From positions 45,175 to 109,174 of the forward strand of contig CAJWIT010000001.1 in NCBI GenBank assembly GCA_913041945.1: a stretch of 64,000 nucleotides of DNA. The letters run 5' to 3'. Positions 29,493 to 35,663 of the stretch are shown piece by piece (position 1 is the first letter of the stretch; each line of letters opens with the position of its first letter). The notes beneath the pieces are model-generated. The model was not told where the DNA came from. It made no database searches and saw nothing but the letters and a program-made list of their open reading frames with translations. The DNA is from an uncultured Fidelibacterota bacterium. Its GTDB lineage: Bacteria > Fidelibacterota > Marinisomatia > Marinisomatales > UBA8229. Position numbers and translations under genes: made by a program.

Positions 29493-32400
29493 TTATTTCA
29501 TCGTTCGTTTGGAAAGTCTGGTTAAATCTGTTCCGACTTCAAATGGGACCAGCATGAAGGAATAGTCATAATTCCCCGGAGAAAGTGTATATTTATCATG
29601 GGGCCTTGCTCCCCAGCTATTGTCGCCGCCAACGCCCATTTGTTTAAGATCAATCAACCAGTCCACCTGGTCCTTTTGCTGTATATTCAGTTTGCCGTGT
29701 TTTTGTCCTTTGGGAATATAATCAAGATCTTCGTATGGATAGTGATGGACACTGCCATCAAATGTGGGTGATCCTTTGACCATCAACCCGATCTTCCCAT
29801 TGGAAAGTGCCATCCAGCGAACATCAGTTTTATTCCCTGTTTCCTGGGGACGTACATATTGATAAGTCTGATCCCATACCGACCCATGATACAGTCCAAC
29901 TGCAGCCGATGTTTTACGATCAATATAAGATTCATGAGGACCACGTCCAAACCAGGTTACTTCATCAAAATCTCCCGATAAACTCATCTTTATTCCTATT
30001 CTTGGAATTTCCGGAAGTGAGGTGTCTGCCATTGAATATTTATTATCAATTTTTATAATTCCATTTCCATATACTTTATAAACAGAAACTAAATTAAAAT
30101 TAATGGATAGATAGCTGTTTTTAACCACAACGCAAGCAAAACCGTTTTTTATTTTACTCCTTATCGCTTCTGTCTTCAAACTATCACTCACATTTCTCCA
30201 TAATCCAGTTCGCTTTGGCATCCCATTCCCCAGATCATTATCATTAGGCGATCGCCAGAAATTTGCCTCAACAGGTTTAATGAAGAGTTCAATACCATTA
30301 TAAATATATTGTTTTATTTGACCTGTAGCGCGGTTAAAGGATACACTAAAATTTTCGCCATGCACTTCAATTTCTTCATCTGTATTCAGGATAGTAATCA
30401 TGGGCAGACCAGTTAAAGGAGCTGCAGTCAACTCGCGACTAATTGGTAATTGAAATTGTTCCCACGCGACGATATGACCTTTTGAAATGAGTGGATGATT
30501 CTGATTGGTTTTAGATCGAACCATTAAAAAATATTCCACTCCCGGATCTGGGATAATCCCGGAAAGATTGAACGTTAATTTCTGTGATTCACCTGCTATA
30601 AGATCAAGTTTTCCAATTTTTCCTGATGAAATAGTTTTATCATTGCCTTTAACAAACCATTCAAAATTCAAATGATTTAAATCAACAAAATCGTAGCGAT
30701 TGGTTACTTTGATGCGGCCTCGGGATAATTTATCTGCTTCAAACTTAACCGGTTGATATACTTTTTTCACTTCATGCATATGAGGATTGATGGTTCTGTC
30801 GGCAGCAATAAGGCCATTGGCACAAAAGTTGGAATCATTTTCAGCAAACTCATCACCAAAATCTCCGCCGTAGGCCCAATAATCTGTTCCATTTTCAGCT
30901 GTCTTCAAAATAACCTGATCTACCCAATCCCAAATAAATCCACCTTGGAGTGCATCATATTTCTCAAAGGCATCCCAATAATCCTGCAGATTGCCGACAC
31001 TATTGCCCATGGCATGTGCGTATTCACAAAGGATAAGTGGTTTTTCAGTTTTTTTAGAAGCGTAATCAGAAATAAATTCTATGTTCTTGTACATGGGAAA
31101 AACCACATCGGTGTGATCTTCATACCATGCTGGTTGATAAGCTACGGGACGTGTATTATCCCTGGATTTTATCCAATCATATAGTTTTACAAAATTCTCT
31201 CCATCGCCTGCTTCATTGCCCATGGACCACATAATGATACAGGGCTGATTTTTGTCACGCTCCACCATTCGTTTACCTCGATCGATCCATTGGGCTGTCC
31301 ACGTTGGATCATTGGCAATATGTCCATAGCTGTTCTCATGAAATTGCATTCCGTGTGCTTCAATATTTGCCTCGTCGATCACATATAGACCATATTCATT
31401 ACACAATTCATACCAGCGTTCCTGGTTAGGATAATGAGATGTACGGACAGCATTTATATTATTCTCTTTCATGAGTTTGATATCTTTGACCATGATCTCT
31501 TCGGTAATGGACCGCCCCCGAACAGGATCCCATTCATGGCGATTCACACCGCGGAACATAATAGCTTTACCATTTACAAGCAGATTTCCATTTATTATTT
31601 CAACCCGTTTAAAACCCACTTGCTGAGTTAAACTTTCTATAACTTCCTTTTGAGCATTAATCAGGTTAATCTGCAGATTATACAAGTACGGATATTCTGC
31701 TGACCATGGATTGATCTGGTCAATCACCTCTTCAAATAATATTGATTTTTTTACAACTGCTGTCGAATCAAACAATATTTCGGATGAACCGGTCAAAACA
31801 GCTTTGATAGTCATTTCTTCTGCTGTTTCATCATCTTGTAAAAAATCTATGTCGAGGGAAAAATATCCAGATTTTAGATCGTCATTCAATTCTGCTTTGA
31901 CAAATAAATCGGAGATTCGTGTTTTAGGGACTGCATAAAGATACACATCGCGTTCTAATCCACTGACCCTCCAGGTATCCTGGCCTTCCAAATAAGAGCC
32001 GTCAGAAAAACGATACACCTGAACCGCAATGCGATTATCACCAGTGATAACTTTATCTGTAATATCGAATTCTGCTGGAGTTTTTGAACCTTGACTATAG
32101 CCGATAAATTCACCATTCAGCCAGAAATAGAATGCAGATCGCACACCGCCAAAATGAATAAAAATATCCCGACCGTTCCAATTCTCATCCAATTCAAACG
32201 TCTTTACGTATGATCCAACTGCATTGTAGTCATGAGGCACAAATGGCGGATCTGGTGGAAAAGGATATTCTTCGTCCAAATAAATAGGGACTGACCAGCC
32301 CTGCATTTCCCAGTGGCCCGGAACATTAATATTTTCCCAGCTAGAAACATCATGGTCTGTTTCTTCAAAGCCAACCGCCTTTTGTGCAGGATCTTTAGCA

Positions 32401-32639
32401 AAATGGAATTTCCATGCGCCATTCAATGATTGAAAATAGTTGGATAGGGATTTATCATTTTTTAAGGCCAATGCCTCTGATTCAAATGGGAAAAAATGGG
32501 CTCGCGGTTCCTCGCGATTGATTTGAAAGACAGTTTGGTCTTCCCAATGATCATTCATCTCATGTTTTTTTTCTATTTTCATCATTACAATAGCCACAAC
32601 TAACATTAAGATAAAAATGAGTAAAATTGCATTTTTCAT
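29493..32639 (-). CDS. lacZ: GH2 beta-galactosidase (LacZ-type) with N-terminal signal/anchor
   Basis: [20 protein letters not shown] (acid/base), [12 protein letters not shown] (nucleophile), [19 protein letters not shown]; hydrophobic N-terminus. Confidence 0.92.
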
Positions 32640-33916
32640 TATTCAGACATTGTTTCATCGATTTTTTTAACCAATTCATCGGCATTTTTCTTATTGAACA
32701 CCAAGGGCGGTTTGATCTTGATAACATTATGGTCCGGGCCGTCCGTACTCAATAGAAGTCCTTTATCTTTCATTTGATTTACGATGGTTTGTGCTTCAGA
32801 AGCCGCAGGAACAAGTTCATCTTTTACTAACTCGATCCCAATAAATAGTCCCCTGCCACGTACTTCTCCAAATAGATCATGTTGATTCTGTAGATTTTTA
32901 AGTTGATTTAAAAGATAACTTCCTACTTCCAAAGCATTTTCTTGTAAACCTTCTTCTTTGATCACATCCAGAACAGCTTGTCCCACAGCGCAGGAGACTG
33001 GATTTCCGCCAAAGGAATTGAAATATTCCATTCCGTTATTAAAAGAATCCGCGATTTCTCTCGTCGTCACCACTGCTGACAACGGATGGCCATTACCCAT
33101 AGATTTTCCCATGGTCACTATATCCGGGACAACACCATGTGTTTCAAAACCCCAGAAATGCGAACCCACCCTGCCAAATCCAATCTGTATTTCATCAGCA
33201 ATACATACTCCACCAGCTGCCCTGACTAAATCAAATGCTTTCTTTAAAAATCCTTTTGGCAGGATTAATTGACCACCACAGCCCATTAAGGCTTCAGCAA
33301 TAAAAGTTGATACTTTCTCCCCTTTTTTCTGAATCTCATTAATGGCTGACTGCACCTCTTGTGCATACTTTTCTCCACAGTCCTCACCACGATATTTCCC
33401 GCGGAAAGAATCGGGCATAGGTAGCGTATAAACAAAATTTGGTGACCCGTTGCCACCTGGGCCGTTATGTTTATACGGGCTGATCTCAATTAATGAAAAT
33501 AGATTCCCATGGTAAGCACCATCCAGAACGATCGTTGCCTTGTCTCCGGTAAATTGACGAACCAAGCGCAACGCTAGATCATTCGCTTCGCTTCCAGAAT
33601 TGGCGAAGAAGCACACCTCCAATCCATCAGGTAAAGTGGACGTAATATCTTTGGCATAATTGACAATGGTTTCATCCAGATAGCGTGTGTTCGTATTCAG
33701 TTTTTTATATTGCTGTTGTGCTGCTTCGATGACTTTTGGATGACAATGCCCCACATGCTGTATATTGTTGACACAATCCAAATAGCGATTCCCTTTTGCA
33801 TCAAAAAGATATTGTCCCTCACCACGGACAATATGCAGAGGTTCATCATAGGATACGCTCAATGATGGTCCCAAGTGTTTACTGCGCAGGTCTAATATCT
33901 CTTTATGATCCAGCAT
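32639..33916 (-). CDS. Class-III PLP enzyme, phospho-lyase subfamily (ETNPPL/PHYKPL-like)
   Basis: [54 protein letters not shown] (PLP Lys), [15 protein letters not shown]. Confidence 0.85.
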
Positions 33917-34895: not shown

Positions 34896-34931
34896 AATTG
34901 AATAATAAGTTACAGTGTGAAATTTGTATTG

Positions 34932-35663
34932 TTAAAAATTTTCACATACCCACTGAATAGATCTGTTGTGACCTAAGCGGATATTATTCCATTCTTCAGG
35001 AAGCAAGATACTTTTACCACTCTCAATAGAAACTTCTTGAGGGTCAACTGTTAACTTTCGGAAAGCTCCATCCTGGCTATGAACAGTTCTCCACTGAGTA
35101 TAGTTTACAGTACTGCTGATCTTATACTCTTTTCTTTGAATTTTTTCACAGCCATACATCTGACGATCCATCCCTGCCAAAGGGGCTGCAATGCTATGAA
35201 TGGTAATTGGAAAATCATGGTCCCAATTCTCAGCAAATAAAGATGTTATCAAGCCACCTATACTATGACCTATAATCCATAATGAATCTAAATGCGGATT
35301 GTTTTCAATTAACATCTCAGTTTGACGATATAAATAACCCGCGGAATTCTCCGGACATCCAGTCCAATCATACCTGAAAAACCAAACCGGAATCTCCCGA
35401 CGGGATAATGCCATCAGCGGGTTAACCCATTCAAAGCCTTTTGTTTGCCAATCTGTTGGATAATAGCCATGCACCGTGATGATCCCATAGGTTGAGTCTT
35501 TTTCATTGATACCACTCAATCTGTGAAAACCATCTGATCGATTAATCAAATATTCATCATAATCCGATTTATTGATTTTTAACTTATTTAATAATAAATC
35601 TGGATGATCAGATTGAGTACAGCTTAGAAATAATAGAAATAATAGCGAAAGATAGTGATTCAT
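34932..35663 (-). CDS. Alpha/beta-hydrolase lipoprotein (esterase/lipase-like)
   Basis: Lipobox FLSC, VHGY oxyanion loop, GHSIGG nucleophile elbow, late Asp/His (QDGA, LGHN). Confidence 0.72.
   Translation of the reverse strand: MNHYLSLLFLLFLSCTQSDHPDLLLNKLKINKSDYDEYLINRSDGFHRLSGINEKDSTYGIITVHGYYPTDWQTKGFEWVNPLMALSRREIPVWFFRYDWTGCPENSAGYLYRQTEMLIENNPHLDSLWIIGHSIGGLITSLFAENWDHDFPITIHSIAAPLAGMDRQMYGCEKIQRKEYKISSTVNYTQWRTVHSQDGAFRKLTVDPQEVSIESGKSILLPEEWNNIRLGHNRSIQWVCENF

What the first reader, a model, noticed from the sequence alone, without database searches (positions are those of the whole stretch)
29493..35663. Candidate galactosyl-hydroxylysine (collagen glycoside) catabolic operon
Seen: an APH kinase overlaps a class-III PLP enzyme by 14 nt, which is coupled by TAATG to an exported GH2 beta-galactosidase. 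A hydrolase lipoprotein precedes them and the block is bounded by a 30-bp direct repeat. Known: HYKK (AGPHD1) phosphorylates 5-hydroxylysine and PHYKPL (AGXT2L2) converts the product to 2-aminoadipate semialdehyde, NH3 and Pi. Bacterial kinase/phospho-lyase pairs or fusions exist, and the NTNxRYL, EYFNxFGGNP and KIKPP motifs here match that subfamily. Collagen hydroxylysine carries beta-linked galactose on the very hydroxyl the kinase needs. Inference: the galactosidase unmasks the hydroxyl, giving a deglycosylate-phosphorylate-eliminate route for animal-derived organic matter. I know of no description of this three-gene coupling.
Basis: partly seen in the sequence, partly recalled or inferred. 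Interest (0 to 1): 0.78.

Follow-up and report, generated by a model that had tools for sequence, protein, structure and literature searches.

The report
Candidate collagen galactosyl-hydroxylysine breakdown operon
A marine SAR406 bacterium couples a beta-galactosidase to a hydroxylysine-type kinase and phospho-lyase, and the same pairing recurs in other bacterial groups, pointing to an undescribed route for eating the sugar-bearing hydroxylysine of collagen.

Summary
On the minus strand lie a lipase-like lipoprotein (34932-35666), an APH kinase (33903-34895), an ETNPPL/PHYKPL-type class-III PLP enzyme (32639-33916, 14-nt overlap) and a LacZ-type GH2 (29493-32639, TAATG overlap). The 27-nt direct repeat is real but is one of 5 genome copies that sit behind terminator hairpins, so it does not mark this block.

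The window is from a Marinimicrobia (SAR406) MAG. GH2 follows the lyase in 24 of 31 related loci.

Independently, 54 of 80 Bacteroidota loci with a kinase-lyase fusion carry a beta-galactosidase within 10 kb (GH2 33, GH42 21). 44 of 80 carry an alpha-glucosidase (GH63 43, GH31 1), often in SusC/SusD loci. These loci also hold piperideine-6-carboxylate dehydrogenase (12), 2-oxoadipate dioxygenase HglS (11) and a YdiJ-like dehydrogenase (17). One Pseudoalteromonas has GH2 next to a fusion. Hydroxyproline and Xaa-Pro peptidase genes are frequent neighbours.

This fits Glc-Gal-Hyl → Gal-Hyl → Hyl → 5-phospho-Hyl → 2-aminoadipate semialdehyde. No biochemistry exists, and my literature searches found no description.

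The parts
29493..32639 (-). LacZ-type GH2 beta-galactosidase, 1048 aa, with an N-terminal hydrophobic anchor or signal; proposed Gal-Hyl beta-galactosidase
   Evidence: Pfam finds five GH2/LacZ domains. NCBIfam NF052611 beta_gal_Bga2A scores 1106 bits against a cut-off of 999. PDB best hits are 6SD0, 3DEC and E. coli LacZ entries. Orthologues at 54-68% identity follow the lyase in 24 of 31 loci.
32639..33916 (-). Class-III PLP enzyme of the phospho-lyase subfamily, 425 aa; proposed 5-phosphohydroxylysine phospho-lyase
   Evidence: Aminotran_3 at 9.2e-86. It matches the C-terminal part of the PRK06148 fusion at 679.8 bits. PDB: 6TOR human ETNPPL 1.3e-155 and 5G4I phospholyase 2.8e-99, while the next hits (racemases, transaminases) are 2e-55 or weaker. 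The PLP lysine in [12 protein letters not shown] aligns with 6TOR.
33903..34895 (-). APH-family small-molecule kinase, 330 aa; proposed 5-hydroxylysine kinase
   Evidence: PF01636 APH at 1.2e-21. It matches the N-terminal part of the PRK06148 fusion at 240.3 bits. It is fused to the lyase in other phyla. There is no PDB relative.
34932..35666 (-). Small lipase-like alpha/beta-hydrolase lipoprotein, 244 aa (GTG at 35666, or ATG at 35663); role in the pathway doubtful
   Evidence: Lipobox and GHSIGG are seen. Pfam hits are all weak (Abhydrolase_6 2.4e-4, Lipase_3 1.5e-3). Atlas neighbours are Lipase_3/DUF676/PGAP1-type clusters. It is adjacent to the kinase only in same-genus genomes (L002, L008).
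35669..35695 (-). Copy A of a 27-nt intergenic motif, 2 nt upstream of the lipoprotein start and behind the MazG terminator-like hairpin
   Evidence: RNA-library contigs break at 35668 and 35698.
29384..29410 (-). Copy B of the same motif, downstream of GH2 and 86 nt upstream of the next gene (dioxygenase-like, T9SS-sorted, 28386-29297)
   Evidence: RNA-library contigs break at 29384 and 29417.
29412..29433 (-). Terminator-like hairpin plus T-run ending the operon after GH2

Best explanation
This is a catabolic module for the glycosylated hydroxylysine of collagen-type proteins.

Proposed steps:
1. The envelope-located GH2 removes the beta-galactose that masks the 5-hydroxyl of hydroxylysine. 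The substrate would be Gal-Hyl, as free glycoside or short glycopeptide.
2. Hydroxylysine is imported.
3. The cytoplasmic APH kinase phosphorylates the 5-hydroxyl.
4. The PLP phospho-lyase eliminates phosphate and ammonia to give 2-aminoadipate semialdehyde (piperideine-6-carboxylate).
5. A piperideine-6-carboxylate dehydrogenase, encoded elsewhere in this genome, oxidises it to 2-aminoadipate.
6. Galactose enters the Leloir route through a symporter and galactokinase on another contig.

Shown here: gene identities by family, translational coupling, and conservation of the gene order and context.

Inferred: every substrate and every reaction.

Relatives add an alpha-glucosidase (GH63 or GH31) for the Glc-alpha1,2-Gal cap, a SusC/SusD importer, and HglS plus a YdiJ-like dehydrogenase for 2-oxoadipate. 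This window holds the minimal version.
For: 1. Coupling: a 14-nt overlap and a TAATG overlap.

2. The lyase sits in the phospho-lyase subfamily: 6TOR 1.3e-155 and 5G4I 2.8e-99, against 2e-55 or weaker for racemases and transaminases. The kinase and lyase are the two ends of the PRK06148 fusion.

3. GH2 directly follows the lyase in 24 of 31 Marinimicrobia-clade loci. Six lack it and one contig ends there.

4. In the reverse GH2 scan, 4 of 4 GH2 at 61% identity or more are next to a lyase, against 1 of 76 at 47% or less.

5. Of 80 Bacteroidota fusion loci, 54 hold a beta-galactosidase (GH2 33, GH42 21), 44 an alpha-glucosidase (GH63 43, GH31 1), 42 both, and 24 neither. Two unrelated galactosidase families fill the same place.

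6. Aminoadipate-pathway genes lie in the same loci: P6C dehydrogenase in 12, HglS in 11 and a YdiJ-like protein in 17 of 80. P6C dehydrogenase scores 838 and 825 bits against a cut-off of 730. An example is Chitinophaga pinensis L152: SusC-SusD-GH2-GH63-fusion-HglS-P6CDH, all on one strand.

7. A GH2-GH63 fused protein of 1666 aa lies next to the fusion in L145.

8. Collagen context in the Marinimicrobia clade: Pro_racemase-family genes in 11 of 31 loci and aminopeptidase P in 13 of 31. An ornithine cyclodeaminase-family gene stands in GH2's place in L024. F. taihuense L131 adds prolidase, DPP-IV, DAO and two Pro_racemase genes.

9. In G012 (locus L014), a genome of the window's own order, the order is FecR-SusC-SusD-kinase-lyase-GH2-SSF, with a GH63-like gene further on.

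10. G000 has a P6C dehydrogenase (778.9 bits against 730) and GH109-SSF-GalK on contig C17.

11. A figure legend of preprint 10.64898/2026.07.01.735942 names PDB 3W7W as GH63 YgjK E727A bound to Glc-alpha-1,2-Gal, the collagen disaccharide (passages only).

12. RNA-library contigs cover parts of all four genes and bridge the kinase/lyase and lipoprotein/kinase junctions.
Against: - No enzyme here or in any relative has been assayed.
- The closest solved homologue of the lyase is the ethanolamine-phosphate enzyme. No PHYKPL or HYKK sequence was on hand, so the hydroxylysine-versus-ethanolamine branch could not be placed by phylogeny.
- G000 shows no GH63, GH65, GH31 or GH42, no Pro_racemase or ornithine cyclodeaminase-family gene, no U32 peptidase and no HglS. 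The genome is 87% complete. The M9 search had a dead control.
- No transporter is adjacent in the window.
- Only 24 of 31 Marinimicrobia-clade loci have a kinase next to the lyase. L035, L037, L038 and L090 have sequence upstream but no kinase.
- 48 of 49 loci from other phyla have no GH2 nearby.
- 24 of 80 Bacteroidota loci have no glycosidase nearby.
- Neighbours GH109, fucosidase and BNR genes suit general animal-glycoprotein scavenging as well.
- GH2-GH63 pairs also occur without a kinase-lyase (L197, L198, L200, L201).
- The RNA contigs may carry DNA, and none listed spans the lyase/GH2 junction.
Confidence: 0.7

Rival explanations
1. The kinase-lyase pair degrades hydroxylysine, but the GH2 does not act on Gal-Hyl. 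It trims other beta-galactosides of animal glycoproteins (mucin-type or N-glycan Gal). It shares an operon only because both serve the same food source.
For: GH109, alpha-L-fucosidase and BNR genes lie in the same Marinimicrobia loci. GH92 follows in L171 and L197. GH2-GH63 pairs exist without a kinase-lyase. The GH2 is an ordinary five-domain LacZ type.
Against: TAATG coupling to the lyase. GH2 is the immediate neighbour in 24 of 31 loci. In Flavobacterium, GH42 replaces GH2 at the same place, and a GH2-GH63 fusion lies beside the kinase-lyase. The close GH2 clade (61% identity or more) is next to a lyase in 4 of 4 loci found.
Confidence: 0.12
2. The kinase and lyase act on another amino alcohol, such as ethanolamine, 1-amino-2-propanol, or an amino alcohol released from a galactolipid or galactoside. 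The module is then not about collagen.
For: The best solved homologue is human ethanolamine-phosphate phospho-lyase. From recall, APH-kinase plus class-III lyase pairs act on aminopropanol in a mycobacterial microcompartment. Most phyla carry the pair or fusion with no glycosidase nearby (48 of 49 loci).
Against: P6C dehydrogenase, HglS and YdiJ-like genes are co-located in Bacteroidota loci. Hydroxyproline genes are adjacent in several phyla (ornithine cyclodeaminase-family gene in 6 and Pro_racemase in 5 of 49 loci). An alpha-glucosidase plus beta-galactosidase pair matches the Glc-Gal cap of hydroxylysine.
Confidence: 0.12
3. The gene order has no functional meaning. It is an accidental operon inherited within one lineage.
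For: Six of 31 clade loci lack GH2. The lipoprotein neighbour is genus-specific.
Against: The association recurs in three phyla with different gene orders, split and fused forms, and different glycosidase families.
Confidence: 0.03

Closest known systems
Vertebrate hydroxylysine route: HYKK (AGPHD1) kinase plus PHYKPL (AGXT2L2) phospho-lyase (Veiga-da-Cunha et al. 2012, J Biol Chem 287:7246). Content recalled; the paper is not held; the reference was seen in the list of PMC8154272.
   Same: An APH-family kinase paired with a class-III PLP phospho-lyase. The proposed chemistry is the same: 5-OH phosphorylation, then elimination to 2-aminoadipate semialdehyde, NH3 and Pi. From recall, bacterial kinase-lyase fusions were the clue used in that paper.
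   Different: The genes are bacterial, split and translationally coupled. They are joined to an exported beta-galactosidase and, in relatives, to an alpha-glucosidase, SusC/SusD and aminoadipate-pathway genes. No vertebrate counterpart couples deglycosylation to this route.
Human ethanolamine-phosphate phospho-lyase ETNPPL (PDB 6TOR) and Arthrobacter phospholyase A1RDF1 (PDB 5G4I)
   Same: They are the closest solved relatives (521.7 and 336.1 bits). They share the motifs and the PLP lysine.
   Different: By the depositor's name, 6TOR is an ethanolamine-phosphate phospho-lyase; 5G4I is named only a phospholyase, and that it too acts on phosphoethanolamine is recalled. Here the genomic context points to a lysine-skeleton substrate.
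E. coli LacZ and other LacZ-type GH2 beta-galactosidases (NCBIfam beta_gal_Bga2A)
   Same: The five-domain architecture and the family score. WSMGNEAG and [12 protein letters not shown] are present in the translation; that these are the LacZ catalytic-Glu motifs is recalled, not aligned here.
   Different: It has an N-terminal membrane anchor or lipoprotein signal. It forms a separate clade at 54-68% identity, against 47% or less to other GH2. It is tied to a lyase gene, not to lactose or galactan genes.
PGGHG (GH65), the vertebrate Glc-Gal-Hyl alpha-glucosidase, and GH63 YgjK
   Same: PGGHG removes the Glc-alpha1,2 cap of collagen's disaccharide (PMC8626586, passages). [quoted passage not shown] GH63 YgjK-like genes lie in 43 of 80 Bacteroidota loci.
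   Different: No such gene was found in this window's genome. The bacterial loci use GH63 or GH31, not GH65.
Pseudomonas putida lysine catabolism: aminoadipate to 2-oxoadipate, then HglS, then D-2-hydroxyglutarate dehydrogenase (recalled; no paper read)
   Same: HglS (PF07063), a YdiJ-like FAD/Fe-S dehydrogenase and P6C dehydrogenase lie beside kinase-lyase fusions.
   Different: Entry into the pathway would be from hydroxylysine through a phospho-lyase, not from lysine. HglS was not found in this genome. The one YdiJ-like match there, on C43, is weak (26% identity over about two thirds of the query) and was not examined further.

Membership tests
LacZ-type GH2 beta-galactosidase | Five-domain architecture (sugar-binding, Ig-like, TIM barrel, domain 4, small-chain domain) and a family-model score | tested here: met
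   Pfam hits PF02837, PF00703, PF02836, PF16353 and PF02929. NF052611 scores 1106.1 against a cut-off of 999.
LacZ-type GH2 beta-galactosidase | Catalytic acid/base and nucleophile glutamates | tested here: inconclusive
   WSMGNEAG and [12 protein letters not shown] are in the translation. Their equivalence to the LacZ Glu461 and Glu537 motifs is recalled; no residue alignment to LacZ was printed.
LacZ-type GH2 beta-galactosidase | Activity on a beta-galactoside; here specifically Gal-beta-O-hydroxylysine | not testable with these tools
   Needs an enzyme assay.
ETNPPL/PHYKPL phospho-lyase subfamily of class-III PLP enzymes | Class-III fold with the PLP lysine, and closer to phospho-lyases than to transaminases | tested here: met
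   PF00202 at 9.2e-86. 6TOR 1.3e-155 and 5G4I 2.8e-99, with the next hits at 2e-55 or weaker. The lysine of [12 protein letters not shown] aligns with 6TOR.
ETNPPL/PHYKPL phospho-lyase subfamily of class-III PLP enzymes | Genetic pairing or fusion with an APH-family kinase | tested here: met
   A 14-nt overlap here. Fusions of 754-1185 aa occur in other phyla. PRK06148 matches both proteins.
ETNPPL/PHYKPL phospho-lyase subfamily of class-III PLP enzymes | Belongs to the PHYKPL (5-phosphohydroxylysine) branch rather than the ETNPPL branch | not tested
   No PHYKPL sequence could be fetched. Only genomic context (P6CDH, HglS, YdiJ-like) speaks for hydroxylysine.
HYKK (AGPHD1)-type hydroxylysine kinase | APH/protein-kinase-like fold with the catalytic loop and a DFG-like motif | tested here: met
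   PF01636 at 1.2e-21. IHNDGNDHN and IDFGD are in the translation; that these are the APH motifs is recalled.
HYKK (AGPHD1)-type hydroxylysine kinase | Orthology to vertebrate HYKK and phosphorylation of 5-hydroxy-L-lysine | not tested
   There is no solved relative and no HYKK sequence on hand. Activity needs an assay.
Bacteroidota-type polysaccharide utilisation locus (SusC/SusD) | An adjacent SusC-like TonB-dependent receptor and a SusD-like lipoprotein | tested here: not met
   None lies next to the operon in the window. They are present in G012, a genome of the window's order, at locus L014, and in 42-44 of 80 Bacteroidota loci.
Collagen-degrading organism (for this genome) | Collagenase (U32 or M9), hydroxyproline genes, and an alpha-glucosidase for Glc-Gal-Hyl | tested here: not met
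   No U32, Pro_racemase, GH63 or GH65 was found. No GH31, GH42 or ornithine cyclodeaminase-family match was found by tblastn. The M9 search was uninformative because its control failed. The genome is 87% complete. DPP-IV-like and M24 genes are present.

The most novel reading that the evidence does not exclude
Bacteria of at least three phyla (Marinimicrobia/SAR406, Bacteroidota, and Pseudoalteromonas among the Pseudomonadota) share an unrecognised pathway that mineralises collagen's signature glycoside Glc-Gal-Hyl.

The proposed steps are:
- an alpha-1,2-glucosidase (GH63 or GH31);
- a Gal-Hyl beta-galactosidase, which would be a new specificity met by GH2 or GH42;
- a hydroxylysine kinase and a phospho-lyase;
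- P6C dehydrogenase, HglS and a D-2-hydroxyglutarate dehydrogenase.

The genes are often packed as a 'collagen-glycopeptide utilisation locus' together with hydroxyproline and Xaa-Pro peptidase genes. In the dark ocean this would make SAR406 a consumer of animal-derived collagen, for example from gelatinous zooplankton, fish and marine snow.
Probability: 0.55. Interest if true: 0.78.

Novelty: new variant of a known kind. Interest (0 to 1): 0.72.

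Why it matters
Collagen is the most abundant animal protein, and its hydroxylysine carries Gal or Glc-Gal.

From recall, vertebrates excrete Gal-Hyl and Glc-Gal-Hyl largely intact, and no Gal-Hyl beta-galactosidase gene has been named. 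How these glycosides are recycled in nature is therefore open.

The conserved loci found here give a full, testable gene set for that recycling, partly in cultivable model bacteria (Chitinophaga pinensis, Flavobacterium species). They would also do three more things:
- assign a substrate to the widespread bacterial kinase-lyase fusions (PRK06148, 'hypothetical protein');
- suggest a function for YgjK-like GH63 enzymes;
- give SAR406, an abundant uncultured deep-ocean group, a defined role in turning over animal-derived organic matter.

Tried and rejected
- **Earlier findings.** The tool was not open.

- **Veiga-da-Cunha 2012.** The paper (PMC3293546) is not held. Its content is recalled. Its supplements, and those of every other paper, were not seen. 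They could hold lists of bacterial fusions with gene context.

- **Phylogeny against HYKK, PHYKPL, ETNPPL and AGXT2.** Not run. The search for homologous proteins returned only close marine relatives with generic names, and no tool gave the vertebrate sequences.

- **Literature.** None found a paper on bacterial Gal-Hyl or Glc-Gal-Hyl catabolism or on a galactosidase-kinase-lyase cluster. One search was badly framed and uninformative.

- **The direct repeat as a boundary of a mobile block.** Rejected. The motif has 5 genome copies behind terminator hairpins.

- **The lipoprotein as a pathway member.** Doubtful. It is genus-specific, has only weak lipase-like hits, and is unrelated to the S33-type hydrolase that precedes the fusions in Sediminibacterium-type loci.

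- **RNA runs.** Parts of the operon without contig cover, and the runs with small word shares (X3-X16), are not used as evidence of absence or of habitat.

- **M9 collagenase search.** The control rang nowhere, so the result says nothing.

- **Not used.** Structure prediction, complex prediction and the 1.84-billion-protein profile search, because the open questions are substrate questions.

Full report
**What is in the window.**
Four genes lie head to tail on the minus strand:
- a 244-aa lipoprotein (34932-35666);
- a 330-aa APH-family kinase (33903-34895);
- a 425-aa class-III PLP enzyme (32639-33916);
- a 1048-aa GH2 (29493-32639).

The kinase stop and the lyase start overlap by 14 nt. The lyase stop and the GH2 start share TAATG.

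Pfam gives APH, Aminotran_3 and all five LacZ-type GH2 domains. The lipoprotein reaches only a sub-threshold Abhydrolase_6 hit.

NCBIfam places the GH2 above the cut-off of the LacZ-type equivalog beta_gal_Bga2A (1106 bits against 999). It matches the kinase and the PLP enzyme to the N- and C-terminal parts of one fusion model, PRK06148, 'hypothetical protein'.

The upstream genes (MazG, YbeY, a 7TM-HD protein, an acyl-CoA dehydrogenase, FabH, RecJ) and the downstream genes are housekeeping or unrelated. Downstream lie a dioxygenase-like protein with a type-IX secretion tail and YjbQ.

Record titles of close relatives name Marinimicrobia/SAR406 (also 'Neomarinimicrobiota' or Fidelibacterota). 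The genome held for the window has 1.83 Mb in 119 contigs and is 87% complete.

**The single proteins.**
The PLP enzyme's best solved relatives are the two known phospho-lyases. Human ethanolamine-phosphate phospho-lyase 6TOR scores 1.3e-155 and Arthrobacter phospholyase 5G4I scores 2.8e-99. Racemases and transaminases start at 2e-55.

The kinase has no solved relative.

The GH2 resembles the Thermotoga, Bacteroides and E. coli LacZ-type enzymes. Unlike cytoplasmic LacZ, it begins with a hydrophobic segment. Orthologues begin either the same way or with a lipobox cysteine, and the Chitinophaga one has a classical signal peptide. So an envelope location is likely. The kinase and the lyase have no such segment.

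The lipoprotein is a small lipase-like alpha/beta hydrolase. It neighbours the kinase only in genomes of the same genus.

**The direct repeat.**
The 27-nt core occurs twice in the window (29384-29410 and 35669-35695). It matches at 25 of 27 positions, and none is expected by chance.

The genome holds five copies, and four of them lie directly after a GC-rich hairpin and a T-run. Contigs from RNA libraries break exactly at its edges, and the depth there is several-fold higher than alongside. It is therefore a repeated intergenic motif tied to terminators and gene starts. It is not a boundary of this block.

**Is the GH2 coupling conserved?**
A scan of one genome per species with the lyase gave 80 loci. 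Thirty-one form the clade of the window, with split kinase and lyase genes. In this clade:
- GH2 directly follows the lyase in 24 loci;
- one contig ends at the lyase stop;
- six loci have other genes there (L024, L027, L036, L038, L044, L048).

A kinase is adjacent in 24 of 31. L035, L037, L038 and L090 have upstream sequence without one.

In the window's own order, 13 of 41 genomes have the kinase. The kinase-lyase-GH2 order recurs in the two genomes G012 and G038, which belong to one other family of that order.

In the reverse scan with the GH2, 4 of 4 relatives at 61% identity or more sit beside a lyase. Only 1 of 76 at 47% or less does. The scan is pattern-limited and missed most of the clade.

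**Neighbours in the Marinimicrobia clade.**
The following occur within the 31 loci:
- a sodium:solute symporter in 20, usually right after GH2;
- a GH109 in 16;
- an aminopeptidase P (M24) in 13, usually right before the kinase;
- a proline-racemase-family gene in 11 (the family of hydroxyproline epimerases and 3-hydroxyproline dehydratases);
- a GH63-like glycosidase in 4;
- galactokinase in 3.

In L024 an ornithine-cyclodeaminase-family gene stands in the place of GH2, before the proline-racemase-family gene.

G012, a genome of the window's own order, shows at locus L014 the order FecR-SusC-SusD-kinase-lyase-GH2-symporter, with a GH63-like gene further on.

The window's own locus lacks these extras. 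GH109, a symporter and galactokinase lie on contig C17.

**Independent occurrences.**
Among the 49 loci from other phyla, the enzymes are fused: APH-Aminotran_3, or APH-Peptidase_M23-Aminotran_3. Only one of the 49, Chitinophaga niastensis, has a GH2 nearby. Its order is SusD-GH2-GH63(YgjK-like)-fusion.

A second scan with that fusion gave 80 Bacteroidota loci. Counting within 10 kb:
- 54 hold a beta-galactosidase (GH2 in 33, GH42 in 21);
- 44 hold an alpha-glucosidase (GH63 in 43, GH31 in 1);
- 42 hold both, 56 hold either, and 24 hold neither;
- SusC is in 42 and SusD in 44.

Typical orders are:
- SusC-SusD-GH2-GH63-fusion in Chitinophaga, Pedobacter and Niabella;
- SusC-SusD-GH63-GH42-fusion in Flavobacterium.

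In Flavihumibacter, GH2 and GH63 are one 1666-aa protein next to the fusion. A Pseudoalteromonas contig has a LacZ-type GH2 directly followed by an APH-Aminotran_3 fusion.

On a FastTree tree of 162 lyase domains, the Marinimicrobia and the Bacteroidota sequences each lie together in the tip order of the midpoint-rooted tree; branch supports were not inspected. The glycosidase context is found in both. So the link arose, or was kept, in separate lineages, with different gene orders and different galactosidase families.

**Which substrate?**
Sequence alone cannot tell hydroxylysine from ethanolamine. The closest solved enzyme is the ethanolamine-phosphate lyase, and I could not obtain PHYKPL or HYKK sequences.

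Context can tell. In the Bacteroidota loci there are:
- a piperideine-6-carboxylate (= 2-aminoadipate semialdehyde) dehydrogenase in 12 of 80 (838 and 825 bits against a cut-off of 730 in two examples);
- HglS, the 2-oxoadipate dioxygenase/decarboxylase (PF07063), in 11 of 80;
- a YdiJ-like FAD/Fe-S dehydrogenase in 17 of 80. Its best NCBIfam model is D-2-hydroxyglutarate dehydrogenase, at 561 bits, below the cut-off of 1350.

Examples:
- C. pinensis L152: SusC-SusD-GH2-GH63-fusion-HglS-P6CDH;
- F. saccharophilum L121: HglS-P6CDH-GH63-GH42-fusion-YdiJ-like.

These enzymes use exactly what a 5-phosphohydroxylysine lyase would make, and they have no role for acetaldehyde.

Hydroxyproline genes beside the pair point the same way, to collagen. 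They occur in Marinimicrobia, in F. taihuense and in several other phyla (an ornithine cyclodeaminase-family gene in 6 and Pro_racemase in 5 of 49 loci). F. taihuense also has prolidase, DPP-IV, aminopeptidase P and a DAO-type oxidase.

A GH63 YgjK structure with bound Glc-alpha-1,2-Gal is cited in a preprint legend. PGGHG, the vertebrate enzyme for that bond in collagen, is described in PMC8626586 (passages).

The window's genome has its own P6C dehydrogenase (778.9 bits against 730) next to an ornithine-aminotransferase-like gene.

**What speaks against, or stays open.**
- No assay exists for any of these proteins.
- In this genome I found no alpha-glucosidase of GH63, GH65 or GH31, no GH42, no Pro_racemase or ornithine cyclodeaminase-family gene, no HglS and no U32 peptidase. 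The genome is 87% complete. The M9 search had a dead control.
- The organism would therefore handle Gal-Hyl but not the capped Glc-Gal-Hyl, and would depend on other peptidases. A DPP-IV-like gene and M24 genes are present.
- No transporter is adjacent.
- GH109, fucosidase and BNR neighbours fit general animal-glycoprotein foraging.
- GH2-GH63 pairs also occur without a kinase-lyase.
- Eleven of the Bacteroidota loci without a glycosidase have another set instead: an S33-type alpha/beta hydrolase, an amidohydrolase, a GFO/IDH/MocA oxidoreductase and a 3-keto-disaccharide hydrolase.

**Expression.**
Contigs from metatranscriptome libraries of two studies cover parts of all four genes. In X1, one contig spans the kinase/lyase junction and one spans the lipoprotein/kinase junction, with 0 and 5 differences respectively. 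X1 and X2 are one sample.

None of the listed contigs spans the lyase/GH2 junction. DNA carry-over cannot be excluded, and contigs cannot prove a single transcript.

**Comparison and novelty.**
The chemistry is that of the vertebrate HYKK/PHYKPL route (recalled; the paper is not held). The enzyme families are all known.

What I did not find in print is:
- any bacterial pathway for Gal-Hyl or Glc-Gal-Hyl;
- any Gal-Hyl beta-galactosidase;
- any mention of glycosidases linked to the kinase-lyase genes.

The library lacks most subscription journals, and supplements were closed.

The direct repeat and the lipoprotein should be set aside.

Noticed in passing
window 29384-29410 and 35669-35695; G000 C12, C85, C119: A 27-nt motif (TTTGTT..TGGGAT.ATGGGTAGATTT) has 5 copies in the genome. 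Four of the five lie right behind a terminator-like hairpin. RNA-library contigs branch at its edges, and depth there is about 5-fold above the flanks. It may be a terminator- or promoter-linked element, or part of a small RNA.
   Followed up: partly
L172-L183 (Sediminibacterium/Chitinophagaceae MAGs): Eleven kinase-lyase fusion loci without GH2, GH42 or GH63 instead have an S33-type alpha/beta hydrolase directly upstream. Most also have an amidohydrolase, a GFO/IDH/MocA oxidoreductase and a 3-keto-disaccharide hydrolase (PF06439). This may be an oxidative (3-keto) route of deglycosylation replacing the glycosidases.
   Followed up: partly
L145:4992-9989: A single 1666-aa protein fuses a complete LacZ-type GH2 to a YgjK-like GH63. 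It lies directly upstream of a kinase-lyase fusion and HglS (Flavihumibacter MAG).
   Followed up: partly
L053:6108-9275, L063:6186-9287 and similar: Fusions of about 1030-1185 aa in Acidobacteriota, Chloroflexota, deltaproteobacteria and others carry a Peptidase_M23 domain between the APH kinase and the lyase. Its role is unexplained.
   Followed up: partly
L008 (G002:C114:1-2954): In a same-genus genome the locus is lipoprotein-kinase-lyase-GH2, but only kinase residues 225-329 match, and lyase residues about 210-372 are missing. This is either decay of the genes or a collapsed assembly.
   Followed up: no
L014 (G012:C42): A genome of the window's own order carries a Bacteroidota-style locus: FecR anti-sigma, a SusC-like receptor and a SusD-like protein, then kinase, lyase, GH2, symporter and a GH63-like gene.
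   Followed up: partly
L027, L036: Two contigs filed under Anaerolineales (Chloroflexota) carry split kinase and lyase genes 69-72% identical to the window's. They sit inside the Marinimicrobia clade and have no GH2. This suggests mis-binning or gene transfer.
   Followed up: no
L118/L156 and L135/L162: Flavobacterium sp. W1B and F. gillisiae each have two kinase-lyase fusions. One lies in the SusCD-GH63-GH42 locus and one elsewhere (in L162 it lies next to aminopeptidase P). The two may be paralogues with different substrates.
   Followed up: no
window 28386-29297: The gene after the operon joins an intradiol-dioxygenase-like domain (PF00775) to a FlgD-Ig domain and a type-IX secretion sorting tail. 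A secreted 'dioxygenase' is unusual.
   Followed up: no
window 6906-7769 and 7785-9251: A 287-aa ORF that matches only the first half of aldehyde dehydrogenases lies directly downstream of a full-length 488-aa aldehyde dehydrogenase. It may be a gene fragment or a duplication remnant.
   Followed up: no
L015 (G024:C20), L044, L048: In some relatives the kinase (L015, with no lyase nearby) or the kinase-lyase pair (L044, L048) is followed by a small unknown ORF of about 150-167 aa and a large AAA_22 protein, instead of GH2.
   Followed up: partly
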